This document shows, in pieces, positions 4,548 through 28,869 of a stretch of DNA of 64,000 nt (within the stretch, counting starts at the first letter, position 1; every line of letters starts with the position of its first letter). The stretch is from sequence record ON286972; one strand, written 5' to 3'. This stretch comes from Escherichia phage A4. The notes beneath the pieces were generated by a model that was given only the letters and a program-made list of their open reading frames with translations, had not been told where the DNA came from and did no database searches. A program made the translations under genes and the position numbers.

Positions 4548-4576
4548 TTGACATTAAATGTGTTCATTGCTATAAT
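4548..4576 (+). promoter_or_regulatory. sigma70-type promoter (TTGACA-17-TATAAT)
   Basis: TTGACA 4548-4553, 17-bp spacer, TATAAT 4571-4576, ~30 bp upstream of ORF 4609. Confidence 0.55.
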
Positions 4577-4900: not shown

Positions 4901-4927
4901 ATCCCTGTCAATTGGCAGGGATTTTTT
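4901..4927 (+). terminator. rho-independent terminator
   Basis: hairpin ATCCCTG-loop-CAGGGAT followed by TTTTT. Confidence 0.5.
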
Positions 4928-4941
4928 ATTGGTGGTAAACT

Positions 4942-5688
4942 ATGGATCTTGAAAAACAAACCGAAGCAATCATCACCGAACTAATCAAAATTGGTTATAA
5001 ATGCCCATTTATCTATGGTTCGTGGAATACTTTTTGTTTGTATAAGTATGATGACAAATTACCAAATGATATTGATGTTATTAATATAGTACCAGAAGAG
5101 TTTGAAGAAGGTGAGTTCTCTGTAAAATTAGATTGTATTGATATACCTGTCAATATTGAATGTATGACTCTCAATCATCTTCGTGTCGAATTAATGCGTG
5201 GTGATGTTAAATACTATACCATCGGTTTTGGTACTATTGTACCGAAATGTGCAAATCATCTTTTGATGTACCTTGGTCATATCGGTTCGGTTATGATGAC
5301 ACGCCGTAACAGTGAGATTCGTAAAATTTGCAGTACTGCATCAGATAAAGCCTTTAATAAAGGAAAAAAGAAGTTGACAGTACTGGAAGATTACGATAAG
5401 ATGTTAGGACTAAAGAACATCTGGCATAGCATTCACTTCATCTATATCATTACGCATTATTACAATCTGTACAGATCTAACACTGAACATGAAATGAATA
5501 TTGCGTCGATGAAACAAGAGTTTGATGTGCTTGAAATGCTGAACATTCGCGACAACATCTATAAGATATATGATGAAACATATGGTGATTATCATGTAAA
5601 AGCACAAGCTGTTATTGATTACGCGAAACCGATTCGTAACAAACTGATGACTGAATTTAGAAAATTATACCCCAAGGAGGATGTATGA
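4942..5688 (+). CDS. hypothetical protein (possible minimal nucleotidyltransferase fold)
   Basis: 248-aa ORF; YGSW..(17)..DIDV resembles GS..DxD nucleotidyltransferase signature, weak. Confidence 0.4.
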   Translation: MDLEKQTEAIITELIKIGYKCPFIYGSWNTFCLYKYDDKLPNDIDVINIVPEEFEEGEFSVKLDCIDIPVNIECMTLNHLRVELMRGDVKYYTIGFGTIVPKCANHLLMYLGHIGSVMMTRRNSEIRKICSTASDKAFNKGKKKLTVLEDYDKMLGLKNIWHSIHFIYIITHYYNLYRSNTEHEMNIASMKQEFDVLEMLNIRDNIYKIYDETYGDYHVKAQAVIDYAKPIRNKLMTEFRKLYPKEDV

Positions 5689-5751: not shown

Positions 5752-6309
5752 ATGTTCTTTGACCAAACATTTACGTTGTACCATGATTCTGGAAAAGTAG
5801 AGATTGTTGATAATCTTCTACAATATATTGCTGACCACGAAGGGGTTGAACGATTTCACAGCAAAATGAAATTTGATTTATCCGAGTTCAACAAGAAGAA
5901 TCGTGAATCATTCTGGAAAAATCGTTTCTATTATGAAATGTATCCTGAAAAGTTTGTCAGTTATTATCTCTGTACTGAAAAAGGTTTACTTGTATCGCCT
6001 GATTTACTTATGGGTGAATACATGGTTCTCTATAATGAGTACTGGGAACATAAACGTAAGGCCCGTGACACCGAATGGCGACACAAACGCTCTTACATGT
6101 ACAAGCATAACCATTTTCGCTACAAACGTCCTAAGACCCAACAAGAGCGTCGTATGGCGTGTGCAGTACTGAAGGATGATGGTGAACCTGATATTCGTGG
6201 AAAACGCAAGATGCGTTCACTACCGACATATTGGGACGATTTTAGAACAAGACACAGTACTGGCTGGAAATACAGTACTAAACGTAAACATCAATACAAA
6301 GGGAGCTAA
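5752..6309 (+). CDS. hypothetical protein, basic Arg/Lys/Tyr-rich C-terminus
   Basis: 185-aa ORF, AATGGAG ribosome-binding site. Confidence 0.45.
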   Translation: MFFDQTFTLYHDSGKVEIVDNLLQYIADHEGVERFHSKMKFDLSEFNKKNRESFWKNRFYYEMYPEKFVSYYLCTEKGLLVSPDLLMGEYMVLYNEYWEHKRKARDTEWRHKRSYMYKHNHFRYKRPKTQQERRMACAVLKDDGEPDIRGKRKMRSLPTYWDDFRTRHSTGWKYSTKRKHQYKGS

Positions 6310-6336
6310 TGCTCCCTATTTTTATATAGGTATATT

Positions 6337-6666
6337 ATGAACAAAATTGACGTTGAAGTTGTTATTGGCTATATTGAAATTGAACAGTGTGGTATTGATA
6401 CATTTATTGACACTCTTAATAAGTACCGTGCAGAGTACAAGGGGCACATTAGTCTTTCACCAGACGGTGGTTACGGCGGGTTCGATGGATACAATGTAAT
6501 TTGGACACGAGAAGAAACGGATGAAGAATACAATATCCGTTTGCAGTTAGAATCACAACGTCGCGAAGAAATTGAACGTCAAGAAATGAAACATTTAATG
6601 AACAAGAAATCATTAAGTGCTGAAGAGAAATCTAAACTTCTAAAATATATCAAGGATTACATGTAA
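6337..6666 (+). CDS. hypothetical protein
   Basis: 109-aa ORF; ATGTAATG junction with next gene. Confidence 0.45.
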   Translation: MNKIDVEVVIGYIEIEQCGIDTFIDTLNKYRAEYKGHISLSPDGGYGGFDGYNVIWTREETDEEYNIRLQLESQRREEIERQEMKHLMNKKSLSAEEKSKLLKYIKDYM

Positions 6667-7316
6667 TGAAAAATGTAACTCAAGAAAAGATTCTGTATCA
6701 CGCTAAACATAACGGTTCTTTCAATATTATTAGTCGAGAATACGTTGGTCATATGGCTAAGTTGATTGATAATTTATTGGAATTTGATTTCCTGAAATGG
6801 GAAACTAATAATCTTTGGTATGAATACGCTGGACAGCAATGGGAAAGTGATTATGATAATGCAACACATTCATATACTATCACCAAAGCAGGTGAAGTTC
6901 GTTTAGCCATTATGCGTTGTGCATATGCTTACAAAAATCACAAAGGTGAAGAAAAACATACTCGCAGAAATGAAGAGCTATTGCTTCTCATGGAATCAGC
7001 GAAAGTTACAATGTATGATTTGTTCAACCATCCGCGTTGGTATGAAAATCTAACCAAAGCAGAGTACAAAGCGTTGCGTTACATTGATGAACAGACCAAA
7101 ACGCCAATTTTAGTAGATGATGTAAGTGACGGTGAACTAAGCCTCAAATGTGTATTTGACAATTCCAGTACTGAGAGCATTGCTGACATTTCAGTACAAA
7201 TGGCACTTAAAGCTATGGAACTATTCAAGACGCAATACCAAGGTACAAATGCCGATGAAATTGAACGTGAGTTCATTACACGCGTACAGATTGCATTAGC
7301 TAAGACCAAAACTTAA
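6666..7316 (+). CDS. hypothetical protein
   Basis: 216-aa ORF. Confidence 0.45.
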   Translation: MKNVTQEKILYHAKHNGSFNIISREYVGHMAKLIDNLLEFDFLKWETNNLWYEYAGQQWESDYDNATHSYTITKAGEVRLAIMRCAYAYKNHKGEEKHTRRNEELLLLMESAKVTMYDLFNHPRWYENLTKAEYKALRYIDEQTKTPILVDDVSDGELSLKCVFDNSSTESIADISVQMALKAMELFKTQYQGTNADEIEREFITRVQIALAKTKT

Positions 7317-7334
7317 AAACATTGGAAAATAATC

Positions 7335-7520
7335 ATGAAAAGACTTGCATATGTATTAGTATTAATGTTAATATCATCTTGTTCACTAATGGACTTTAAA
7401 TACAGTACACAATACTATTCAGTGTTTGAAGAAGCACCAGATAACTGTTTACTAGAAAGTAATCAGATGTATGTCATTAATGGTGAAACAAAATTACAAT
7501 ACATTTGCAAAGAGGATTAA
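7335..7520 (+). CDS. putative small lipoprotein
   Basis: signal peptide with lipobox-like LISSC. Confidence 0.4.
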   Translation: MKRLAYVLVLMLISSCSLMDFKYSTQYYSVFEEAPDNCLLESNQMYVINGETKLQYICKED

Positions 7521-7523
7521 TTC

Positions 7524-7757
7524 ATGAAAAAGATTATCATTTCTTGTTTAGTTGCTGGGGCAACCTTACTCGTAGGCTGTGCACCTAAAGTTAACGAGAT
7601 GGATGCAGAAATGATCCGTAAGGACTTAACTAAACTGAATCATAATGGCACACTCTATGCCTGTCATGAGATGCGTCACGGACAGGATCTAAATCTTATG
7701 TGTCGCAAAATTGTTAACCGCAAACGCTTAACAACAGTTCCAAAGGATGCTCAATGA
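7524..7757 (+). CDS. putative small lipoprotein
   Basis: MKKIIISCLVAGATLLVGC: canonical lipobox LVGC. Confidence 0.5.
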   Translation: MKKIIISCLVAGATLLVGCAPKVNEMDAEMIRKDLTKLNHNGTLYACHEMRHGQDLNLMCRKIVNRKRLTTVPKDAQ

Positions 7758-7779
7758 AAGACGTAATGGGATATAAACT

Positions 7780-8139
7780 ATGAGTGATTATGTTGCATTC
7801 CTACATCGTTTTGGTAAAGCTGAAGAAAAGCACATCATTCGTCTACCAGCTTATGGTGAGAAAGACTGGTACAAAAGTACTATCAGCGTAGGTGCATTCC
7901 GTGACCGTGAAGCTGAATTCTTTCTCGGTAAGCAACATGAACGAGCAGTACTTTGCTCCCTTTGGCGTTTAGACGAATGGGATGAAGAGAATGCAAGAAC
8001 TGCGGTATCAATGCTTAAAATTGTTGGCATTGCAAACTATCAGCACCCATATGATCTATTACCTACGTTTACCCATGCTTCATTGTTTGACTTTTATAAA
8101 GCAATCGGGTATGATTATAAAAAGAAACGTTATATCTGA
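7780..8139 (+). CDS. hypothetical protein
   Basis: 119-aa ORF. Confidence 0.45.
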   Translation: MSDYVAFLHRFGKAEEKHIIRLPAYGEKDWYKSTISVGAFRDREAEFFLGKQHERAVLCSLWRLDEWDEENARTAVSMLKIVGIANYQHPYDLLPTFTHASLFDFYKAIGYDYKKKRYI

Positions 8140-8149
8140 GGATCAATCC

Positions 8150-8953
8150 ATGTCGAATCCAATCTGTAAGCATTGTTCAAAAACTAAATTCTACCATGAA
8201 CCACATACATTGAAATGTCCTAAACCTTCTCGTTCTCTTCTCGTCACTTATGAAGATGTTAATGTATATGATGAAGTAGTTTCTGAACCAAACGTTTTAG
8301 TTATTCCAGAAATCAATCAAACCGTAAGTACATTACTAGATTGGAAAGAACAGATTACCAATGTAGATGATTTTGTTATTCCGTTACATGACAAACAATG
8401 GGTTTTTGATACGATTTATAAAAATGCCGATGTTGATTGTGAAGAAGAAGCAGATGACCTAAAATGTGCATTAAACAATTGTGATGGAACTGTCGTTTTA
8501 GGTAAACCGGATACTGCAAATGATGGAACTTATCTAATGTTTGGTATGAAAACCAATATCGGTGAACTTGAAGATGATTATTGCCTTCTTGATAATATTA
8601 CATTAATAGAATGGAGTAAGCTTTCTAATTTAGAATTGATTGAAATTGGCACTTTTGAAAGTCATATGGATATTGATGAAAGTAAGAATAAAGGTATTAA
8701 TGCCTTTATGTCTGAAGTTATTGGGCGTTCATTGTATAGTCCCGATTCCGTTGATATCAAAACGACTGCTGATTGTAAAGCATTCCTAAAGCAAGAATAT
8801 GATGTTGAAAAAGCAAAACGCATTAAAAAAGAAAAATGGGGTCAAATCGAATACCGCTTATTTGAATCAGATGAAGGTAGACATTACACCTTAGTATCGT
8901 ATAACGATAAACTAATTTCTCATTACGCTTTTGCATATAACGAAGACTACTAA
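8150..8953 (+). CDS. hypothetical protein with N-terminal Cys-rich segment
   Basis: start moved to ATG 8150 (MSNPICKHCSK) with GAGGA 7 nt upstream; track ORF from 7982 overlaps previous gene. Confidence 0.5.
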   Translation: MSNPICKHCSKTKFYHEPHTLKCPKPSRSLLVTYEDVNVYDEVVSEPNVLVIPEINQTVSTLLDWKEQITNVDDFVIPLHDKQWVFDTIYKNADVDCEEEADDLKCALNNCDGTVVLGKPDTANDGTYLMFGMKTNIGELEDDYCLLDNITLIEWSKLSNLELIEIGTFESHMDIDESKNKGINAFMSEVIGRSLYSPDSVDIKTTADCKAFLKQEYDVEKAKRIKKEKWGQIEYRLFESDEGRHYTLVSYNDKLISHYAFAYNEDY

Positions 8954-8997
8954 TAGTTCAGTACTGTCCATGTGGCAGTACTTTTTATGGAGACTAT

Positions 8998-14163: not shown

Positions 14164-14171
14164 TATAAATA
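14164..14171 (+). promoter_or_regulatory. T4-type late promoter-like TATAAATA
   Basis: exact TATAAATA ~30 bp upstream of tail-fibre gene start. Confidence 0.35.
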
Positions 14172-14202: not shown

Positions 14203-16887
14203 ATGGCAAAGAAAATATATGGTGGCATTGATGTTACACATAATGTAACAGTCAAAGGTAAGAGAAGTGTTCAGAGCATCAATGATAACGTATTTGATGA
14301 AAATGGCAATCTCACAATAGATGCATATACACAAGATGATATGCTGGAAATGGTTGGTATGTTACCCATTTCTCGTTATGGTACACAAAACTATCTACCT
14401 GCTGGTGTCAATGGTACAACAGTTGGTTCTTCAGAAAATACTAAATCCAGAAATACAAAATTATTTTTGGAAGATGATAACACTTTAGTAATGCTACGTC
14501 CTGGTACAAATGGGAGTACACAAGGGGTTTATTATAGTTATATGACCCAGGCGGTTGGTACAACAAATACAAGTCGTATGGTTAATACTACTCGTGCATA
14601 TAAACCAAATTATTTTGGTGATTATTATGCATACCATTTATATTCATGTAGTGATGATATTACATGTGGTATGGCAAGTAATGGTTCAATTAATAAACTT
14701 TTTGTATCCGTTAATAATGGCACAATGAACGATGCAATGCATACCGGAATTTTAATTGATGACTATGCTTCAGTTAGGCCAATTGGTGAAGTACAATTTG
14801 TTATTCGTGCAGAAGATGGTGCATTATACTTTTTCAGTTTAGATACACCAAGCAATACTCTTAAAATATCAGTGGTTAAAGTTACTTTTAGTCCAAGTAA
14901 TAACCCAGGTGGTGGTACTTATAGTGTTACTAGAATTACTGGTTGGGCCACAAGAACTTTTTATAATGCAATGGTATATGATGACAATATTGTTCCAACT
15001 ATGAAAATAAATTCAACAAATACCAATGATAATCCATACGTTTTAATTCCAAGTGGTATTATTGGGTTTGGTATTTATATGACAGACCCAGATTTATATG
15101 TTGCACAGAAATCAGGTACAACTACATTTAAATTTAGATTATGTGGCGATATGTGGATGACTAACGGCAGATATGATATACGACCACAACACAGTTTTAG
15201 TATGACTTTTGATATTGCTACTAAGCAATGTGCATTGGATAATATGACAACTACTACACCAGTTGCTGTTTATGATAATGGTACAAGCATGAATGAATCT
15301 GGTCCATGTTTAACAACTGACCCGTTTTATCTTCACGCAGGTGGACGTAACATTTTCAGTAATTATTGCTATGTTCCATCAACTGGGGATGCGTTTTGCT
15401 CATTTTCACCAAACCTTGCAGAAGCATTGAATATATCATATGCAAAATACCCACCCAAATCATTATTTGATTTAATGGATGTTAGAAGTGTATCGGCAAC
15501 TGATTTTATTAATGGTGTCGTATCACCAAGATTTGGTTCAGCAGTTGGTTCATTCCAAGTGGGTGTGGAGTTATTACCAAATAACAGTACTAAGCAATAT
15601 TCAAGACGTTCAGGTGATGGTCGTTTTTATCCATCCTATGCTGTACATAAAGCTACCCCGAACTTTACATTTAAGTCTCTAGACTATGGTAATGTTCTTG
15701 GCTATGAACCAACACCAGACCGAGCGTTTATAACTACACCAGAATCTAGAATTTTTATAAGTTCAATTTCTGGTTCAACGGTAACGACTAATGGTGGTGT
15801 TTTGGTGGCTGATAATAGAACATCAACGCCAATTAGTTTTGATTATAAAGGTAATGTACTGAATAATGGTACAATCAGTATGTCACAAGATATAATGAAT
15901 TCCATTAGAAATTCCGAATTTGCTAAAGTTGCTAGTTCATGGAATATATCACCAGCATCAATAAAAACATTATCTGTATTTGTTCCACAACAAACTGATA
16001 TTCCTGTTTTTGGTGTTCTTGCAGCATCTACTACAGCCCGTGGTCTATATATTCGAGTTGTTGAATTGAATGTCAATACAAGAACTGGTGATATTACAAC
16101 ATGGTCGTTCAAACGTTTAGTACATGAAAGTGTTCAAGCTGGGGATTACAAAACAGATACCGCATATCATCTTGATAGTGGAAGTATTGGTATTACTATA
16201 TATGATGCGGGTTCTTTCTACTTCATTGGTGGTGGTATTCCTGGTTTCTTTAATACAGTTGGTAATACAAACTCTCCATTTTTCCGTGCTACAGTGGATA
16301 AAGCGACAGCCCAATTTAATAATTTCCATATAGCTGGTGCACGTCCGATCTATGCATTAGATGGTCAACCATTCGCTTTACCTAACATTGGGTTTGGTAT
16401 TCTTCAAAGTATAGATAATAATAACAAAACAATTTTTAGAACATATGGTACAACATTAGCGGATTATAATGCATGGACTGATAAAGGAAATCCATTTATA
16501 TGTCTTGTTTCCCAAGATGTTGCTCAAGGTTTTATTATATACTTCACCGAAGAGACACCAGTACTGATATCCGGTAAACACTATACATTACCAATATCAA
16601 ATATAGATTTAACAACTGTGAAAGCAAATCCTGCCAATACTACATTTTATGTGTATATTAAATTAGTACAGGGTATTGCAAACTATCATATATCAACAAC
16701 TGAATTAGCTGAAACTCATTCAATATTCTGGATTGGTACAGTGAAAACTGATAATTTACAAATAACCGAAATTAATATAGAAAAACGTTCTCGTTTAGAC
16801 CTGTTTGGTTCATCATTCAACGCTGCCGGAAGTTCCTTCCCAGTAAGTTCTGGGTTCCCTTCAAGTTCTGGTAATGTGAATTGGTAA
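14203..16887 (+). CDS. tail fibre protein
   Basis: 894-aa Ser/Thr/Asn/Gly-rich; C-terminal module shared with 16898-17488 and 17499-20240. Confidence 0.55.
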   Translation: MAKKIYGGIDVTHNVTVKGKRSVQSINDNVFDENGNLTIDAYTQDDMLEMVGMLPISRYGTQNYLPAGVNGTTVGSSENTKSRNTKLFLEDDNTLVMLRPGTNGSTQGVYYSYMTQAVGTTNTSRMVNTTRAYKPNYFGDYYAYHLYSCSDDITCGMASNGSINKLFVSVNNGTMNDAMHTGILIDDYASVRPIGEVQFVIRAEDGALYFFSLDTPSNTLKISVVKVTFSPSNNPGGGTYSVTRITGWATRTFYNAMVYDDNIVPTMKINSTNTNDNPYVLIPSGIIGFGIYMTDPDLYVAQKSGTTTFKFRLCGDMWMTNGRYDIRPQHSFSMTFDIATKQCALDNMTTTTPVAVYDNGTSMNESGPCLTTDPFYLHAGGRNIFSNYCYVPSTGDAFCSFSPNLAEALNISYAKYPPKSLFDLMDVRSVSATDFINGVVSPRFGSAVGSFQVGVELLPNNSTKQYSRRSGDGRFYPSYAVHKATPNFTFKSLDYGNVLGYEPTPDRAFITTPESRIFISSISGSTVTTNGGVLVADNRTSTPISFDYKGNVLNNGTISMSQDIMNSIRNSEFAKVASSWNISPASIKTLSVFVPQQTDIPVFGVLAASTTARGLYIRVVELNVNTRTGDITTWSFKRLVHESVQAGDYKTDTAYHLDSGSIGITIYDAGSFYFIGGGIPGFFNTVGNTNSPFFRATVDKATAQFNNFHIAGARPIYALDGQPFALPNIGFGILQSIDNNNKTIFRTYGTTLADYNAWTDKGNPFICLVSQDVAQGFIIYFTEETPVLISGKHYTLPISNIDLTTVKANPANTTFYVYIKLVQGIANYHISTTELAETHSIFWIGTVKTDNLQITEINIEKRSRLDLFGSSFNAAGSSFPVSSGFPSSSGNVNW

Positions 16888-16897
16888 TGGAGATAAT

Positions 16898-17488
16898 ATG
16901 GCTTATAAATTTAGATCTGATGTGGAAGCGTATGCTTCCGTTAAATCACAAGGAAAAAATACTGGGACCACGATAACTGATCGTTCTGGTAATGTGTATC
17001 AAGCTGATGCTAATGGGAATGTTGATGTACCACTCATGAGTACAGATGATGTGAATTACATTACCAGTTCCTTTCCGTTATCACAATTTGGTTCACTTTA
17101 CAGTACTGAACCATTGGGTATTTCTGCTGCTGGTTTCAATTTAACTTTCAGTAAAGAATTACCATTGTTCATGGCGGGAGCGGTTTATACCCTCCCTGCT
17201 AAAACAATAACGGACCCAGGAGTTACTGGAACTAATATTGAAACACATTATGTATATGTTATATTAGATGTTGGGGTAGCTGACTACCTCATTTCTAAAA
17301 CTCAACGCCCTGAAAGTAGTGTTAATATGTACATAGGACAACTGACAGTTTTCCCAGATGGCATTACAGGGGTCAGTATAAATAAAGTGTCAAGATTTGA
17401 CGACTTCAGAGTAAGTGCTACAAAAATTGGTTCAGCTATCCCTATCAGTTCTGGTACACCAGATGTGAATAGTGGGACAGAATGGTAA
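16898..17488 (+). CDS. tail fibre-related protein (shares fibre C-terminal module)
   Basis: 196 aa; C-terminus ..SRFDDFR..AIPISSGTPDVNSGTEW parallels the two large fibre proteins. Confidence 0.5.
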   Translation: MAYKFRSDVEAYASVKSQGKNTGTTITDRSGNVYQADANGNVDVPLMSTDDVNYITSSFPLSQFGSLYSTEPLGISAAGFNLTFSKELPLFMAGAVYTLPAKTITDPGVTGTNIETHYVYVILDVGVADYLISKTQRPESSVNMYIGQLTVFPDGITGVSINKVSRFDDFRVSATKIGSAIPISSGTPDVNSGTEW

Positions 17489-17498
17489 AGGAATATAT

Positions 17499-20240
17499 AT
17501 GGCTTCGAGACGAATTATAGGAAACGCAGAAATACTAGGGAATTTGAAAATTAATGGAAAGTATGCATTACGTTCCTTTAATGGATTCCCTGCTGATTCT
17601 GCTGGTAATATCACTTACCAATATTATGACAAAGCGGAAGTGGATCAAATGTTTGATATGCTTCCTGTTTCAAGGGTAGGTGATCAAGATTACCTACCGA
17701 TGAGTATTAACGGTACATTTGAAGGTGCTTCTTCCTTTTCATTTGCAAAAATAATGCAACCTTGTATCATTGAAAATGATGGTACTGGTGTAATTTTACG
17801 TGCAGGTACAAATGGAAGTTCTTATGGTTTCTATTATGCTTATATAAAAAATATAAGAGATATAGAAACATTAACTCAAGATAATATAATTACAACCAAC
17901 ACGATGTATAGACCTTCTGTGCTACCAAGTACTGATTACATTTATGAATTTTATGGGTCAAATGCATATGAATTACTATTTTGGGAATCAACTGATAGAG
18001 CATCATACTACCTTACATTAACAAATGAAACATTAAATGAATCAGCACACAAACATTGCAGAATTCCAAAAACAGCAATAACAAATAAACCAATCTATGC
18101 ACACATCGTAAATGATTCAGTTTATATATGGTGTATGGATTCAAGTGTATTGAGTAGTGTTCGCGGGTGTGCATTTATCATATACACAGTACCTTTAACT
18201 GCATTTAATACTGGTTCAGTTTCGACAGTAACACAGATTAGTGGTTATTCAGGAAGAACTATAAGAAATGTAACATACACTGCATCTAATAATATTCGTG
18301 TTTATGATAGTTATTCAGCGTTGGGTTCAGGTGGTGATGCACTAATAGCATATGATAATGGTGTTTCCAGAATAGATTATTGGGAAAATAACGCATTTAA
18401 TACCCAAGCAGTTCTTAGTCCAGATGGTACAAAAATAAGAGTAGCGATATATCCAGGGTTTCGTGTCTTAACCGCAACAAAAACATCTGGTGTATATGCA
18501 CTTGGTATCAGCTTTACATATGATATCAGTACTAAAACAATGACACTTGACGGTTCTGAACGTGGTCCAATCAGAGTATCAGCTAATGCATCAACTGGTA
18601 GTATAACAGTGAGTAACCCGTTTTCAATCAATATGGAAAACTTTACAGGGTTTTATGATGGTGCACTTGGTAACTATGGTTCAATCTGTCAAACTTCTGA
18701 TGGTTTTGTTTTCACTACCAAAGCAAGATGGTCATCCATGCCGACCTATGCAGTACAAACATACAAAGTTTCTGGTACACCTTATGATAGTTGGGTTGCT
18801 AAAACACGTACTGGTAGTAATTTAAAACGCGTAGAAGTAATGCCCGTTTATGGTTCACCTGTAGGTGAAAACTTAATAGGTGTTCGTTTCGTTGATAAAC
18901 GTAAGATACTTGTTGCATGTTCTGGTACTGCTGATGGAATTTCTTATGGTTATGATAGTACAGTTTTTACTGAAATAGGTGAGAATCCAACTTATAGTTA
19001 TAAAAACTTGGAACAAAATACCACAATGAATGGTTTTGCACCATCAGGTAATAGACACTATTTAAGTACTGATTACAAATATGCAGGTATGGTAACATTG
19101 GTTGATGCCAATGGAAATGTCAGCACTTATGGATCTTCTTTAATAGAAGGTATCGATAAACCAGCTTATGGAAAATTCGACCCTGTTACAATGGACTTTA
19201 ACAGTGATAGATATGAAATTTCAGGAACTACATTATCAGGTATAGGTTATAATGCCGTTGCTAAAGCTGGATTGACTGGAATAACTGAACATAAAACTGT
19301 TTTTTATTATGTACCTGATACTACATATTCTAAATCTATTGCAGTCACTTCTGCACTAAACGGTACTACCAACGTGTGTTATATTATTTTTTCCGAAATA
19401 TCATGTAGTGCACTGGGTACAAGTGGTACTATAATTTTACGTGGTATTAGTGTTGATACAGCAAGATATACATCAATCACGAATACATTCCAAATTTCAC
19501 CAAATGAAATGATCAAACGTTGGGCTGGTATGACTGTTGCTAAGTTTAGTGGTTTTAACTACTTAGGTGTGAACATTTTATATGGCATTGATACCCCAGG
19601 TTGGACTCGTTATCCTAACATGATTGCTAAAGTGAAAAATGGTATTATTTCAAGTCAACGATATATGGAAACAACTTATATTTCAAACGCACAATTTGAT
19701 ATAGGTACAATTCCAGGGATTGGGTTTGGATATTACCAAATGAACAAAAACGATTATCAAACTAAATCAGTTTTTGCTGTATGTGGTACTACTGAAGCAG
19801 ATATGGATAAACTAATATCTGGTAATGAAACGATATCACAGTACTTAGTTGTTGCTTCACAGGATGTGGCACAAGGGTTCAACGTGTACTTTTCACAAGA
19901 AGTACCAGTTTTCTTGGGTGGAAAGTTTGCAAAGATACCACCGACTATGATAGACTTATCTACCATAAGTACTACACCAGATAATTCAACATTCTACATA
20001 TATGCGGTTATGGATAGAGGTACATCTACAGCTTCGTATCAGATATCACTATATCAATTATCAGAAACTATGACATCAACCTACATTGGTAAGATAGTAA
20101 CTGATGCTAATGGTATTGCATCAATCGAGTCTGAAAAAGTGTCCAGATTCTTGCTATACCGCCCAAGTACCTACAATCGTGGTTCTGCTATCCCAGCTAG
20201 TTCTGGGTTACCATCACAATCTGGTACTCGTTGGAGTTAA
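17499..20240 (+). CDS. tail fibre protein
   Basis: start moved to ATG 17499 with AAAGGAATATATATGG, same context as 14203; C-terminal VAQGF..SRF..AIPASSGLPSQSGTRWS. Confidence 0.55.
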   Translation: MASRRIIGNAEILGNLKINGKYALRSFNGFPADSAGNITYQYYDKAEVDQMFDMLPVSRVGDQDYLPMSINGTFEGASSFSFAKIMQPCIIENDGTGVILRAGTNGSSYGFYYAYIKNIRDIETLTQDNIITTNTMYRPSVLPSTDYIYEFYGSNAYELLFWESTDRASYYLTLTNETLNESAHKHCRIPKTAITNKPIYAHIVNDSVYIWCMDSSVLSSVRGCAFIIYTVPLTAFNTGSVSTVTQISGYSGRTIRNVTYTASNNIRVYDSYSALGSGGDALIAYDNGVSRIDYWENNAFNTQAVLSPDGTKIRVAIYPGFRVLTATKTSGVYALGISFTYDISTKTMTLDGSERGPIRVSANASTGSITVSNPFSINMENFTGFYDGALGNYGSICQTSDGFVFTTKARWSSMPTYAVQTYKVSGTPYDSWVAKTRTGSNLKRVEVMPVYGSPVGENLIGVRFVDKRKILVACSGTADGISYGYDSTVFTEIGENPTYSYKNLEQNTTMNGFAPSGNRHYLSTDYKYAGMVTLVDANGNVSTYGSSLIEGIDKPAYGKFDPVTMDFNSDRYEISGTTLSGIGYNAVAKAGLTGITEHKTVFYYVPDTTYSKSIAVTSALNGTTNVCYIIFSEISCSALGTSGTIILRGISVDTARYTSITNTFQISPNEMIKRWAGMTVAKFSGFNYLGVNILYGIDTPGWTRYPNMIAKVKNGIISSQRYMETTYISNAQFDIGTIPGIGFGYYQMNKNDYQTKSVFAVCGTTEADMDKLISGNETISQYLVVASQDVAQGFNVYFSQEVPVFLGGKFAKIPPTMIDLSTISTTPDNSTFYIYAVMDRGTSTASYQISLYQLSETMTSTYIGKIVTDANGIASIESEKVSRFLLYRPSTYNRGSAIPASSGLPSQSGTRWS

Positions 20241-23609: not shown

Positions 23610-24239
23610 ATGGCTATTTCCTTTTACACCACAATGGAAGTTACTGGTGTTGTTAAATTCTCGAAAGCTGAATTTAAAAAACCAATATTAACATTTGATA
23701 CATCGTCTTTTAATATTATCAGAACACACGAAATTTCTGGTGCAGATAATCATTTAAGTAATTCAGTGATTACAACACTAGGAACAGATAGCAACCAATC
23801 GTTACAGATTGCTGCGTGGGCTGGGATGACAGAGACTAATAACGGTGTTAAAATACAAGCACGCACAACAAATGACACAAACAGTACTGAATGGGTTACA
23901 TTATATGATAGCTCCAACAGTACTGTGACAGTATTACCACAAGCTGATAGTTACGATATAGATACCAGTACTGGTAATAAAGTTTTTAATTTAACTCTAA
24001 ACAAACCAAACACTACAATTAATATCCTTCCTAATGCTAAAACTCAAGTATATGATTGCACTGTTATCATAGAACAAGGCACAGGTTCAAATCTTGTAAG
24101 CTGGAGTTCTAATGTGAAATGGTCATTCAATCGTCAAGTTCTTCTTTCATATGAACAATCCCAAAAAGATATAATTTCCCTAGAAACCTATGATGGTGGT
24201 ATTACATGGTACGGTGCTCTTATTCGAGCAGGGGTATAA
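23610..24239 (+). CDS. hypothetical protein (Ser/Thr/Asn-rich, possibly virion-associated)
   Basis: 209-aa ORF, composition like fibre proteins. Confidence 0.4.
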   Translation: MAISFYTTMEVTGVVKFSKAEFKKPILTFDTSSFNIIRTHEISGADNHLSNSVITTLGTDSNQSLQIAAWAGMTETNNGVKIQARTTNDTNSTEWVTLYDSSNSTVTVLPQADSYDIDTSTGNKVFNLTLNKPNTTINILPNAKTQVYDCTVIIEQGTGSNLVSWSSNVKWSFNRQVLLSYEQSQKDIISLETYDGGITWYGALIRAGV

Positions 24240-27099: not shown

Positions 27100-27525
27100 A
27101 TGCTAAACGAACAAATCAAAGACGCACTACGTGTACTGAATCGCGAAGTTAGCCGTATCCATAAAAGTACTGATCGTTATAAAGTAATGCATGAAATTAA
27201 ACTAGAATTAGAAGCTATCAATAAGGGTGAATGGTTCCTTGAACCAGAATACCGTACACGTGAACCATCTGACGTTGAAAAAGCAATTGCAAAATTCATT
27301 TCTGGTCGTTATAGTGATGTATCAGAGAAAGATGTACTGATGAATTTACATTTAACCTCCTTAGAAATTGAAGAAAAATTCAAATTTGATTCACTGGACT
27401 GGGTAGAAATGATCATGGAACTTGAAGATGAATTTAAGGTTGAGATCGAAGATAAGTATGAATCAGGTGATACCAGAATCGTACATCTCGTAGCACATGT
27501 ACAAACAATGATCGATAAACGATAA
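27100..27525 (+). CDS. acyl carrier protein-like protein with N-terminal extension
   Basis: FDSLDWVEMIMELEDEFKVEIED closely parallels ACP [23 protein letters not shown] incl. phosphopantetheine Ser. Confidence 0.5.
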   Translation: MLNEQIKDALRVLNREVSRIHKSTDRYKVMHEIKLELEAINKGEWFLEPEYRTREPSDVEKAIAKFISGRYSDVSEKDVLMNLHLTSLEIEEKFKFDSLDWVEMIMELEDEFKVEIEDKYESGDTRIVHLVAHVQTMIDKR

Positions 27526-27570
27526 TTTTCAGCACTCTAAATAATATCATCATCTATAGGAGATATTATT

Positions 27571-27945
27571 ATGAGTGTACTAGATATTATTGTTTCAAAA
27601 GTACTGATACCGTTCTGGAAACCAATTGCGTTTGTTCTCCTGATGGCATCATGTACTTTTGGAGGCTGGAAGGCTAATACTTTTTATACTGGGTATAAAG
27701 AAAGTATTGAATTAAAAATAGAGAAGAAAGTAGATGCGGCTTTAAGTAAAATTGAAAGCCAAAATACCAAAAACTATGTAGAAACTAAACAGATAATGCA
27801 AAATAATGCAAAGGTAATAGAAACTAAAGTACCAGTTATTATTGAGCGTGAAGTGTATAGAAATGTATGTTTAGATGAAGAAGGGGTAAAACTTTTGAAT
27901 GATCTAAAACAAAATTCACTTGCAGCTAGAGAGAAATTTAAATGA
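27571..27945 (+). CDS. putative i-spanin (Rz-like)
   Basis: N-terminal TM segment, predicted coiled-coil remainder; overlaps downstream lipoprotein gene. Confidence 0.4.
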   Translation: MSVLDIIVSKVLIPFWKPIAFVLLMASCTFGGWKANTFYTGYKESIELKIEKKVDAALSKIESQNTKNYVETKQIMQNNAKVIETKVPVIIEREVYRNVCLDEEGVKLLNDLKQNSLAAREKFK

Positions 27946-28256
27946 AATACATATTAACATTCTTGATTACTTTTATGTTTATCACTGGGTGTTCTAATAA
28001 GGTTCCAGTTCAAGCGTCACCAATAATCACCCAGGAAATATTATTAGAACGATGCGAAGAAGATACACCAATTCCTAAAAAAATTGTTGTTGACTCACAT
28101 GGTAATAGAGGATATGCTGGTGATGAAATTCTTAACGTTCTGACGCGTTGGGATTCCATGTACAATGATTGTGCACTGAGATATGATGCACTAATTGATA
28201 CAATTCGCAAACTCCAAGACCAAAATATTCGTGTTAACATAAAAGTTAAGGAATAG
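27942..28256 (+). CDS. putative o-spanin (Rz1-like outer-membrane lipoprotein)
   Basis: signal peptide with lipobox ITGC; start overlaps upstream TM gene. Confidence 0.45.
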   Translation: MKYILTFLITFMFITGCSNKVPVQASPIITQEILLERCEEDTPIPKKIVVDSHGNRGYAGDEILNVLTRWDSMYNDCALRYDALIDTIRKLQDQNIRVNIKVKE

Positions 28257-28257
28257 T

Positions 28258-28869
28258 ATGTCTAAATATCATGTTTATTATGTAACCAAATTGAGTTTAC
28301 TAGATGAACTCAATCATACTAGTACCAAAATGAAACGTTATACTTATAATGGTATTACTTTCAGATACTTTCCACAAAAAGTACTAACATTCGTTAAGAA
28401 TTGTAAGTGCATTGCTTGTGGCATCGAGGCTACAGAAGTTCGAATCGAACGTTCCAACTGTAGTGATCCGGTATATGGTAAACCGCATTTAAATGTGTAT
28501 GCAGTATGTGGTCTTTATGAAGTTATGATGACTGTAGATCATAATCATCTTGCATCTAAAGGTGGTGCTGATTTGGAGTCAAACTTTAATACAATGTGTG
28601 CGAGATGTAATCAGTTGCGTTCAAATAAAACTGAAACGGTTGATGAATTCCTTGAGAAAGTCAAAAACCGAAATCTACTTGAAGAACATATGAATCGTTA
28701 TTTCAATAAGATTGAGAAGGAAAGTAAACGTCCTACACCAGAAATGCTCGAAGAACGTAGATTGCGTCAAGAGCTATGGGATAACGATCATCTGTGGCAT
28801 GTTCGTGAGTACGGGCGACACATGAAAGCATTAAAAAAGGCACAAAAGCTGTTGGATAAACATGAGTAA
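28258..28869 (+). CDS. HNH endonuclease
   Basis: VDHNHLASKGGADLESNFNTMCARCNQLRSNK (HNH core) plus upstream CxxC. Confidence 0.6.
   Translation: MSKYHVYYVTKLSLLDELNHTSTKMKRYTYNGITFRYFPQKVLTFVKNCKCIACGIEATEVRIERSNCSDPVYGKPHLNVYAVCGLYEVMMTVDHNHLASKGGADLESNFNTMCARCNQLRSNKTETVDEFLEKVKNRNLLEEHMNRYFNKIEKESKRPTPEMLEERRLRQELWDNDHLWHVREYGRHMKALKKAQKLLDKHE

What the first reader, a model, noticed from the sequence alone, without database searches (positions are those of the whole stretch)
7335..7757. Two tandem small lipoproteins
Adjacent 61-aa and 77-aa ORFs both have signal peptides with lipoboxes (LISSC, LVGC). Small phage lipoproteins are classically superinfection-exclusion or receptor-masking factors, so the pair is a candidate exclusion module.
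Basis: inference. Interest (0 to 1): 0.4.

Follow-up and report, generated by a model that had tools for sequence, protein, structure and literature searches.

The report
Two small jumbo-phage outer-membrane lipoproteins
Two adjacent small genes of a 121Q-like giant coliphage really do encode lipid-anchored outer-membrane proteins that are not the phage's lysis spanin, but their suggested role in blocking other phages is an untested guess and they are unrelated to the known exclusion lipoproteins.

Summary
ORF1 (7335-7520, 61 aa) and ORF2 (7524-7757, 77 aa) both have a basic N-terminus, a hydrophobic core and a lipobox (ISS|C16, LVG|C19). The residue after the lipid cysteine is not Asp, which predicts sorting to the outer membrane.

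The window is an Asteriusvirus-like jumbo phage; the 121Q orthologues are gp485 and gp486. Every homologue found keeps the lipobox cysteine and two further cysteines, while the signal peptide itself diverges freely.

The real spanin pair lies 20 kb away (27571-28256), so these are not o-spanins. Both families are phage-only orphans. I found no Pfam, NCBIfam or PADLOC match, no bacterial homologue, and no sequence or fold similarity to T5 Llp, T1 Cor or any solved structure.

The two genes occur independently across phages, so they are not an obligate module. ORF1 evolves fast (41% identity to 121Q; flanking genes mostly 80-94%) and is replaced by a WGR-domain gene in G17-type phages. ORF2's mature domain is strongly conserved (88%).

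Neither gene sits next to a receptor-binding-protein gene. The ORF2 homologue is absent from the phAPEC6 virion proteome.

Superinfection exclusion remains the best guess (about 0.35), by analogy only.

The parts
7335..7520 (+). ORF1: 61-aa prolipoprotein, orthologue of 121Q gp485, family phrog_22308
   Evidence: ORF listing. phrog_22308 at E 8.5e-15. 41% identity to 121Q gp485. Family alignments with invariant C16, Y27, A34, N37, C38, N49, G50, Y56, C58.
7335..7379 (+). ORF1 signal peptide (MKRLAYVLVLMLISS) ending in lipobox I-S-S before Cys16
   Evidence: Read from the sequence. Passes the PROSITE-type rule. The signal region diverges (27% identity to 121Q) but the lipobox Cys is invariant.
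7380..7517 (+). ORF1 mature domain, 46 aa, lipid-Cys then Ser at +2; three-stranded beta sheet with two invariant Cys (C38, C58)
   Evidence: AF2 model has mean pLDDT 79 (about 90 or more over the mature part), strands 23-29, 38-48 and 51-59. Invariant Cys. A disulfide is inferred, not shown.
7511..7516 (+). Shine-Dalgarno AGAGGA for ORF2, 7 nt before its ATG and overlapping the end of ORF1
   Evidence: Read from the sequence.
7524..7757 (+). ORF2: 77-aa prolipoprotein, orthologue of 121Q gp486
   Evidence: ORF listing. 71-76% identity to the 121Q, G17 and fEgEco12 homologues. 17 protein clusters. 37 phage records by tblastn.
7524..7577 (+). ORF2 signal peptide (MKKIIISCLVAGATLLVG) ending in lipobox L-V-G before Cys19
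   Evidence: Read from the sequence. Rule passed. The signal region is 29% identical to 121Q while G18-C19 is nearly invariant.
7578..7754 (+). ORF2 mature domain, 59 aa, lipid-Cys then Ala at +2; invariant C47, H48, H52, D55, C60; basic C-terminal tail
   Evidence: Alignment A4. 88% identity to 121Q over the mature part. Low-confidence AF2 model (pLDDT 62): helix 25-32 and strands 36-40, 43-52, 55-63, whose hairpin register would put C47 opposite C60 (inference).
6300..6317 (+). Terminator-like hairpin upstream of the gene block that contains both ORFs (context)
   Evidence: Consensus scan. G17 has an annotated terminator at the same relative position, before gp482 rather than after it. Not evidence of function.
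8960..8982 (+). Terminator-like hairpin closing the block 6337-8953 (context)
   Evidence: Consensus scan.

Best explanation
ORF1 and ORF2 are two real, unrelated, non-structural phage genes made as prolipoproteins.

Steps that follow from established knowledge of the pathway: each precursor is exported by Sec, diacylglycerylated on the lipobox cysteine (C16 in ORF1, C19 in ORF2) by Lgt, cut by signal peptidase II and N-acylated. [quoted passage not shown] There a 46-aa or 59-aa beta-rich domain, probably pinned by one disulfide, faces the periplasm.

Inferred step: from that position each protein most likely binds a conserved envelope component of Enterobacterales and makes the infected cell and its debris refractory to further phage attack. 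This could work by changing an outer-membrane receptor from the periplasmic side, as Llp, Cor and Rtp45 do. Alternatively it could intercept the incoming tail tip or tail lysozyme, as T4 Spackle does.

The two proteins act independently, not as a complex. Confidence is about 0.9 that they are genuine outer-membrane lipoproteins and not spanins, and about 0.35 that the function is superinfection exclusion in the broad sense.
For: Genuine lipoproteins: lipobox rule passed, with enrichment over shuffles. The lipobox Cys is invariant while the rest of the signal peptide diverges (29% versus 88% identity for ORF2 signal versus mature part). No homologue has Asp at +2. The Muenster homologue carries a LipoP SpII annotation.

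Two further invariant Cys in each mature domain fit an oxidising periplasm. ORF1's mature domain gives a confident AF2 fold.

Not spanins: the i-spanin (phrog_1152, E 8e-26) and an overlapping 104-aa lipoprotein lie at 27571-28256. These are orthologous to the curated 121Q spanin gp511 and its partner (PMC6139136). They sit next to an ACP-like gene, as reported for Eneladusvirus (PMC7760394).

Non-structural: the ORF2 homologue phAPEC6 gp334c is not among the 62 virion proteins found by mass spectrometry.

Conflict-type signature for ORF1: 41% identity and dN/dS about 0.6 against 121Q, whereas flanking genes are mostly 80-94% identical with dN/dS 0.04-0.21 (gp489 is lower at 59%). ORF1 is also swapped for a WGR-domain gene in G17, phAPEC6 and fEgEco12.

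Phage-restricted: no relatives in 185,579 bacterial and archaeal species genomes. Only about 13 small lipoprotein clusters appeared among 1.84 billion representative proteins.

Precedent: Llp and Rtp45 are small periplasm-facing outer-membrane lipoproteins that abolish receptor-binding-protein binding (PMC9586334; PMC12685063).
Against: There is no homology to any characterised exclusion protein. The profile-to-PDB search hits T5 Llp (8a60_B) only over the signal peptide. hhalign of the mature profiles against Llp and T1 Cor gives probability below 1%. Foldseek against the PDB gives nothing below E = 1.

The Cys layout differs: Llp has a termini-clamping Cys11-Cys58, whereas here the mature-domain cysteines are C23/C43 (ORF1) and C29/C42 (ORF2).

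Known exclusion lipoproteins sit beside the receptor-binding-protein gene (T5 llp next to oad; T1 cor just after the tail-fibre genes). Here the neighbours are metabolic or host-takeover genes: HslV, Sir2, Nudix, PhoH, dCMP deaminase, NrdD.

RaK2-like myoviruses carry many fibres that probably target surface glycans, which a periplasmic lipoprotein could not mask (my own background knowledge, not tested here).

Expression timing is unresolved. There is no T4-like late motif nearby, and a consensus sigma-70 promoter lies 2.8 kb upstream but with terminator-like hairpins in between. The ORF2 model is low confidence. No experiment exists.
Confidence: 0.4

Rival explanations
1. Envelope-modulating accessory factors unrelated to exclusion. 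The lipoproteins would bind or inhibit a host periplasmic or outer-membrane component (for example a peptidoglycan hydrolase, protease, Bam/Lpt/Tol-Pal part or stress sensor). The effect would be to stabilise the envelope during the long jumbo-phage cycle or to tune lysis timing.
For: Same localisation evidence as the best explanation. They are embedded among host-takeover and metabolic genes rather than next to tail genes. ORF2's mature domain is highly conserved across Escherichia and Salmonella phages (88% to 121Q; 83-88% in the Salmonella SD phages), as expected for a conserved housekeeping target. Invariant H48, H52, D55, C47 and C60 hint at a defined binding or metal site.
Against: No similarity to any known inhibitor or envelope-protein family. 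ORF1 is dispensable in many relatives and evolves fast, which fits conflict better than housekeeping. No known precedent among characterised small phage lipoproteins (my background knowledge).
Confidence: 0.25
2. They are o-spanins (Rz1-like) or unimolecular spanins that fuse the inner and outer membranes at lysis.
For: Small outer-membrane lipoproteins with cysteines are the hallmark of o-spanins. ORF2 has a faint signal-peptide-level hit to phrog_3224.
Against: A complete spanin pair exists elsewhere (27571-27945 i-spanin, 27942-28256 o-spanin). It is orthologous to the curated 121Q pair. Neither ORF has an adjacent type-II membrane protein. Neither has a C-terminal transmembrane segment (needed for a u-spanin) or a proline-rich periplasmic domain; ORF1's mature part has 1 Pro and ORF2's has 2 (read from the sequence).
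Confidence: 0.02
3. The two proteins form one obligate two-component module (a heterodimer), or are tandem paralogues with redundant function.
For: They are adjacent, in the same frame and probably co-transcribed. Both models give a three-stranded sheet. Eneladusvirus phages also carry a second lipoprotein (BF_0127, Yen9-04 g120) overlapping the ORF1 homologue, with a weak hhalign match to ORF2 (probability 22-29%).
Against: Distribution is independent. 24 phage records have ORF2 without ORF1, 19 have ORF1 without a detectable ORF2, and 13 have both. There is no profile similarity between the mature domains. Evolutionary rates are very different.
Confidence: 0.1
4. Chance ORFs or mis-annotated non-genes.
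For: They are very short, ORF1 has a weak ribosome-binding site, and there is no domain hit.
Against: Orthologues are conserved across at least four phage genera in syntenic positions. dN/dS is below 1 for the mature parts. ORF1 gives a confident predicted fold. A near-identical pair is present in independent metagenome contigs.
Confidence: 0.02

Closest known systems
T5 Llp (lytic conversion lipoprotein; PDB 8A60) and the Cor lipoproteins of T1, phi80 and N15
   Same: A phage-encoded prolipoprotein of the same size class (Llp 77 aa, Cor 75 aa, ORF2 77 aa, ORF1 61 aa). All have a lipobox, a non-Asp +2 residue predicting the inner leaflet of the outer membrane, and two further cysteines in a 45-60 aa mature domain. 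None is a virion component.
   Different: No similarity beyond the signal peptide and no fold match. The cysteines do not clamp the termini. The genes are not beside a receptor-binding-protein gene. The carrier is a jumbo myovirus, not a siphovirus. No FhuA-type receptor is known for it.
Rtp45 and the BASEL siphophage exclusion lipoproteins that act on LptDE
   Same: A small periplasmic outer-membrane lipoprotein that alters a receptor from inside (PMC12685063). This shows that the design is not limited to TonB-dependent transporters.
   Different: No Foldseek hit to any PDB chain released up to April 2026. I did not check whether the Rtp45 complex 9RPS is in that copy, and no direct sequence comparison was made. 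The genomic context differs.
Two-component spanin o-subunit (lambda Rz1; 121Q o-spanin partner of gp511)
   Same: A small outer-membrane lipoprotein with periplasmic cysteines.
   Different: The phage's own spanin pair is at 27571-28256. ORF1 and ORF2 have no i-spanin partner and are not proline-rich.
T4 Spackle (Sp), a periplasmic inhibitor of the gp5 tail lysozyme
   Same: A small secreted protein of a T4-like myovirus that acts in the periplasm. It would be a mechanistically plausible model for a myovirus whose virion carries a lysozyme (phAPEC6 Gp241 was detected in the virion).
   Different: From my background knowledge, Spackle is a soluble helical protein with an ordinary signal peptide. 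Here the proteins are lipid-anchored and predicted to be beta-rich. No family or fold match was found.
phrog_22308 / UniRef 'Lipoprotein' entries (RaK2 ORF511, Muenster gp205, Yen9-04 g121, Serratia BF_0128)
   Same: True homologues of ORF1 (33-41% identity) in the same syntenic neighbourhood near dCMP deaminase. They are already flagged as putative lipoproteins.
   Different: None has a tested function. The window's allele is a divergent branch, with nearest relatives P0018 (98% identity) and P0035.

Membership tests
Bacterial-type prolipoprotein (signal peptidase II substrate; PROSITE PS51257) | Positively charged n-region, an uncharged hydrophobic h-region, and a lipobox [LVI][ASTVI][GAS]C with the Cys at about position 15-35 | tested here: met
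   ORF1: K2, R3; LAYVLVLML; I-S-S-C16. ORF2: K2, K3; IIISCLVAGATLL; L-V-G-C19. Own implementation of the rule.
Bacterial-type prolipoprotein (signal peptidase II substrate; PROSITE PS51257) | Lipobox cysteine conserved in homologues | tested here: met
   Invariant or nearly invariant in alignments A4, A6 and A8, in all loci, and in all small hits of the representative search.
Bacterial-type prolipoprotein (signal peptidase II substrate; PROSITE PS51257) | Dedicated predictor call (LipoP or SignalP 6 SpII) | not testable with these tools
   The predictors are not available here. The only indirect evidence is the GenBank note on the Muenster homologue, LipoP SpII 10.35 with cleavage at 18-19.
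Bacterial-type prolipoprotein (signal peptidase II substrate; PROSITE PS51257) | Actual lipidation and globomycin-sensitive cleavage; outer-membrane fractionation | not testable with these tools
   Needs experiment. The +2 residues Ser and Ala (never Asp in any homologue) predict outer-membrane sorting by the +2 rule.
Llp/Cor superinfection-exclusion lipoproteins | Sequence relatedness of the mature domain | tested here: not met
   The PDB profile search hits Llp 8a60_B only at residues 1-19. hhalign against the Llp and Cor mature sequences gives probability below 1%. For full-length Llp against ORF2, only the signal peptide aligns. No PHROG or Pfam exclusion family was hit.
Llp/Cor superinfection-exclusion lipoproteins | Fold similar to Llp | tested here: not met
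   Foldseek against the PDB: best E 2.0 for ORF1 (good model) and 1.2 for ORF2 (poor model, so inconclusive for ORF2).
Llp/Cor superinfection-exclusion lipoproteins | Intramolecular disulfide tying the N- and C-termini (Llp Cys11-Cys58; Cor C9/C57 in mature numbering) | tested here: not met
   Two Cys are present, but at mature positions 23/43 of 46 (ORF1) and 29/42 of 59 (ORF2).
Llp/Cor superinfection-exclusion lipoproteins | Gene adjacent to the receptor-binding-protein or tail-fibre gene | tested here: not met
   The neighbours are hypothetical genes flanked by PhoH, dCMP deaminase and NrdD. The nearest tail-annotated gene is at 24190. Compare T5 and T1.
Llp/Cor superinfection-exclusion lipoproteins | Expression blocks adsorption or infection through a defined receptor | not testable with these tools
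   Needs experiment.
o-spanin (Rz1-like) / u-spanin | Paired with an adjacent, overlapping or embedding i-spanin gene (type II inner-membrane protein), or carrying its own C-terminal transmembrane segment | tested here: not met
   The upstream 216-aa and downstream 119-aa proteins have no N-terminal hydrophobic segment. Neither ORF has a C-terminal transmembrane segment. The genuine pair is at 27571-28256.
o-spanin (Rz1-like) / u-spanin | Match to a spanin family model | tested here: not met
   No spanin PHROG or Pfam hit for ORF1 or ORF2. In contrast, 27571-27945 hits phrog_1152, and 27942-28256 has weak hits to phrog_456 and PF23793.
phrog_22308 (ORF1) and the 121Q gp486 family (ORF2) | Significant full-length sequence match and shared synteny | tested here: met
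   ORF1 matches phrog_22308 at E 8.5e-15 over residues 1-60. ORF2 is 66-99% identical to 17 clusters. Gene order gp482-gp483-gp484-ORF1-ORF2-gp488 is the same as in 121Q, Turkey3 and Turkey5.

The most novel reading that the evidence does not exclude
ORF1 and ORF2 would found two new families of exclusion lipoproteins in jumbo myoviruses, structurally unrelated to Llp and Cor. Each would lock a conserved Enterobacterales envelope machine, or neutralise an incoming tail-tip enzyme, from the periplasmic face. ORF1 would be an arms-race allele exchanged in a hotspot and ORF2 a conserved core factor. This would extend lipoprotein-mediated exclusion from siphophages with a single protein receptor to multi-fibre giant phages.
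Probability: 0.2. Interest if true: 0.55.

Novelty: new member of a known kind. Interest (0 to 1): 0.28.

Why it matters
If either protein blocks phage entry, it would identify an envelope target used by RaK2/121Q-type giant phages, whose receptors are poorly known. It would also show that periplasmic lipoprotein exclusion has arisen more than once with different folds. That matters for designing phage cocktails, because jumbo coliphages are being proposed for therapy. It could also provide small proteins for probing outer-membrane machines.

As things stand, the result is mostly a tidy annotation. There are two orphan outer-membrane lipoprotein families, one fast-evolving and dispensable and one conserved, clearly separated from the spanin genes.

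Tried and rejected
1. o-spanin reading: rejected after finding the real i-/o-spanin pair at 27571-28256.

2. Homology to Llp or Cor: only the signal peptides align.

3. Pfam, NCBIfam and PADLOC: nothing above noise. The 'MAGP', 'Slp' and 'Lpp/OprI' hits have E values of 0.06 or worse, far below the curated cut-offs.

4. Foldseek against the PDB (both models) and against BFVD (ORF1 model): the only matches are ORF1's own relatives.

5. ORF1 and ORF2 as paralogues: hhalign aligns only the signal peptide, and the mature profiles show no match. A link between ORF2 and Eneladusvirus BF_0127 is weak (probability 22-29%) and is left open.

6. HExxH metalloprotease idea for ORF2's 'HEMRH': the Glu is Thr or Ser in close relatives, so it is not a zincin catalytic motif.

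7. Long repeat proteins hit by the ORF1 profile in the 1.84-billion-protein search (for example P0034 and P0045): these are multi-copy short-stretch matches to a beta-hairpin-like motif, judged spurious.

8. Bacterial homologues: none in the species-representative genomes, by a pattern-seeded search of limited sensitivity.

9. The 323-aa ORF 7982-8953 has the same length as the G17 WGR-domain gene, but the two are unrelated.

10. Promoter timing: no CBB-type middle motif or T4-type late motif lies near the block, so timing is unresolved.

Full report
**What is there.** The window is AT-rich (35.6% GC). It is 83-88% identical at the nucleotide level to Asteriusvirus jumbo coliphages such as 121Q, G17 and Sharanji, but identical to none of them. 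At the stated coordinates there are two + strand ORFs:
- ORF1, 7335-7520, 61 aa, MKRLAYVLVLMLISS|CSLMDF...
- ORF2, 7524-7757, 77 aa, MKKIIISCLVAGATLLVG|CAPKV...

They are in the same reading frame and separated by TAA plus one codon. AGAGGA lies 7 nt before the ORF2 start. Both pass a PROSITE PS51257-style lipoprotein rule. Only four ATG-started ORFs of at least 50 aa in the 64 kb pass it: these two, a third real gene at 27942, and one antisense artefact. Shuffled sequence gives 0.18 per 64 kb.

**They are real genes.** In 121Q the same slot holds gp485 (59 aa, 41% identical to ORF1) and gp486 (76 aa, about 75% identical to ORF2). The slot lies between the gp484 and gp488 homologues.

ORF1 belongs to phrog_22308 (E 8.5e-15). 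tblastn finds it in 32 phage records from Escherichia, Klebsiella (RaK2, Muenster), Yersinia, Serratia and Erwinia jumbo phages. It is always in a syntenic neighbourhood close to dCMP deaminase.

ORF2 is found in 37 records. These are essentially Asteriusvirus and the Salmonella SD phages, with 40%-identical outliers in EJP2 and Erwinia phage Hallingskeid.

In every homologue the lipobox cysteine is kept while the rest of the signal peptide drifts. For ORF2 against 121Q, the signal peptide is 29% identical and the mature domain 88%. Each mature domain has two further invariant cysteines: C38/C58 in ORF1 and C47/C60 in ORF2. No homologue has Asp at +2. By the +2 rule, which is established knowledge, this predicts Lol-dependent transfer to the outer membrane.

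Independent annotation agrees. Muenster gp205 carries a LipoP SpII score of 10.3, and UniRef names several members 'Lipoprotein'. A near-identical ORF1-ORF2-gp488 arrangement occurs on two metagenome contigs.

**Structure.**
- AF2 with a 13-sequence alignment gives ORF1 a confident mature domain. Block pLDDT values are about 89-94, with three antiparallel strands at 23-29, 38-48 and 51-59.
- ORF2's model is poor (pLDDT 62). It shows a short helix and three strands, and the hairpin register would place C47 opposite C60. I treat that as inference only.
- Foldseek finds nothing in the PDB for either model (best E above 1).
- In BFVD it finds only ORF1's own relatives.

**What they are not.**

(a) They are not spanins. 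The gene at 27571-27945 hits the Rz-like i-spanin phrog_1152 (E 8e-26). It overlaps by 4 nt a 104-aa lipoprotein gene at 27942-28256. Its sequence is the clear orthologue of 121Q gp511, which Kongari et al. curated as the i-spanin together with its downstream o-spanin (PMC6139136). As reported for Eneladusvirus, the pair follows an ACP-like gene (PMC7760394). ORF1 and ORF2 have no membrane-protein partner, no C-terminal transmembrane segment and are not proline-rich.

(b) They are not Llp/Cor-family members.
- A profile search of the PDB hits T5 Llp (8a60_B), but only over signal-peptide residues 1-19.
- hhalign of the mature-domain profiles against Llp and T1 Cor gives probability below 1%.
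- The cysteine layout differs from the termini-clamping Cys11-Cys58 of Llp.
- T5 llp and T1 cor lie beside receptor-binding or tail-fibre genes. Here the neighbours are HslV-like, Sir2, Nudix, PhoH, hypothetical genes, dCMP deaminase and NrdD.

(c) They match no Pfam, NCBIfam or PADLOC family.

(d) I found no bacterial homologues. Pattern-seeded scans of 185,579 species genomes found none. An exhaustive HMM search of 1.84 billion representative proteins with the ORF1 mature profile found 24 hits. About 13 were small proteins of 43-72 aa; every one I retrieved that was not N-terminally truncated has a lipobox. The rest were spurious repeat proteins.

**Pair or two singles?** The two genes are distributed independently:
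- 13 Escherichia phage records have both.
- 24 records have ORF2 only. In G17, phAPEC6 and fEgEco12 a WGR-domain gene occupies ORF1's place.
- 19 records (Klebsiella, Yersinia, Serratia, Erwinia) have ORF1 without a detectable ORF2.

The mature profiles show no similarity to each other. Eneladusvirus phages do have another lipoprotein (BF_0127, g120) overlapping the ORF1 homologue, and its two-Cys C-terminal half aligns weakly with ORF2 (hhalign probability 22-29%). A loosely conserved 'lipoprotein corner' of the genome is therefore possible, but an obligate module is not supported.

**Evolutionary behaviour.** Against 121Q the other genes of the block are mostly 80-94% identical, with dN/dS of 0.04-0.21; gp489 is lower at 59%. 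ORF1 is 41% identical with dN/dS of about 0.6 (0.46 over the mature part). ORF2's mature domain has dN of 0.09 with saturated dS. These are rough Nei-Gojobori estimates on very short genes. ORF1 therefore looks like a rapidly diversifying, dispensable accessory gene in a variable slot, while ORF2 looks like a conserved factor.

**Expression and location.**
- Terminator-like hairpins at 6300-6317 and 8960-8982 bracket the block 6337-8953.
- No T4-like TATAAATA late motif is nearby. The only ones are at 14164, 17377 and 49436.
- A perfect sigma-70 consensus promoter lies at 4548-4576.
- Timing remains unresolved.
- The ORF2 homologue of phAPEC6 (gp334c) is not among the 62 virion proteins detected by mass spectrometry (PMC7247149). 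This fits a non-structural role, with the caveat that small lipoproteins are easily missed.

The next step is inference from precedent. Llp jams FhuA from the periplasm and Rtp45 distorts LptD. By analogy, each protein would bind a conserved envelope component, or an incoming tail-tip enzyme in a Spackle-like way, so that infected cells and debris no longer support productive attack. I put this at about 0.35.

The main rival (0.25) is an envelope-modulating role unrelated to exclusion. ORF2's strong conservation and the metabolic gene context favour that rival. ORF1's rapid turnover favours a conflict role.

**Verdict.** The 'module' idea is not supported. These are new, uncharacterised members of the general class of small phage outer-membrane lipoproteins. 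Homologues are already in databases as hypothetical proteins or putative lipoproteins. Interest is modest.

Noticed in passing
window 27100-28869: This is the phage's real lysis spanin pair. The i-spanin is at 27571-27945 (phrog_1152, orthologue of curated 121Q gp511). It overlaps by 4 nt a 104-aa o-spanin lipoprotein at 27942-28256. The pair is preceded by an acyl-carrier-protein-like gene (27100-27525) and followed directly by an HNH endonuclease (28258-28869).
   Followed up: yes
window 7317-7779, compared with L001 2815-3397, L002 2818-4787, L003 2815-4325 and L016: The slot between the gp484 and gp488 homologues is a variable hotspot. 121Q has ORF1, ORF2 and a 56-aa CxxC zinc-ribbon ORF (gp487). 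G17, phAPEC6 and fEgEco12 have a short ORF, a WGR-domain gene (plus a 126-aa ORF in G17 and phAPEC6), ORF2 and gp487. The window has only ORF1 and ORF2.
   Followed up: partly
window 8150-8953: An extra 267-aa gene (phrog_36508, no Pfam hit) with a CxxC...C N-terminus sits between the gp488 and gp489 homologues. It is absent from 121Q and from the near-identical metagenome contig L014. The longer 323-aa ORF call (7982-8953) overlaps gp488 and is probably a false start. It is unrelated to the same-length G17 WGR-domain gene.
   Followed up: partly
window 4942-5688: A 248-aa gene with no PHROG or Pfam match. 121Q has only a 226-bp gap at this position between gp481 and gp482. It is flanked by terminator-like hairpins at 4901-4922 and 6300-6317.
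   Followed up: no
window 4548-4576: A perfect sigma-70 consensus promoter (TTGACA, 17 nt spacer, TATAAT, with an extended -10 TG) just after the PhoH-like gene, probably an early promoter. T4-like late motifs (TATAAATA) occur only at 14164, 17377 and 49436. The first lies about 40 nt upstream of the 894-aa gene that starts at 14203.
   Followed up: partly
L006 2501-2803 versus L004 2501-2973: Klebsiella phage Muenster gp205 (100 aa, annotated as a putative outer-membrane lipoprotein) is an in-frame fusion. It joins the RaK2 ORF511 lipoprotein (an ORF1 homologue) to the C-terminal part of the neighbouring cytoplasmic-looking ORF512. This is either a deletion or a sequencing difference.
   Followed up: no
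window 7665-7679 (ORF2 residues 48-52): ORF2 contains H-E-M-R-H, which looks like a zincin HExxH motif. The Glu is Thr or Ser in close relatives, while H48, H52, D55, C47 and C60 are invariant. This is possibly a metal or ligand site rather than a protease centre.
   Followed up: partly
L007 2290-2689 and L005 2290-2689: Serratia phage BF and Yersinia phage fHe-Yen9-04 carry a second 82-aa lipoprotein (BF_0127, g120). It overlaps the ORF1 homologue by 38 nt, so these phages also have a tandem lipoprotein pair, in the opposite order if BF_0127 is ORF2-like. It has a serine-rich C-terminal tail.
   Followed up: partly
window 14203-16887 and 17472-20240: Two paralogous genes of about 900 aa (both phrog_3573, function unknown), separated by a 196-aa gene.
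   Followed up: no
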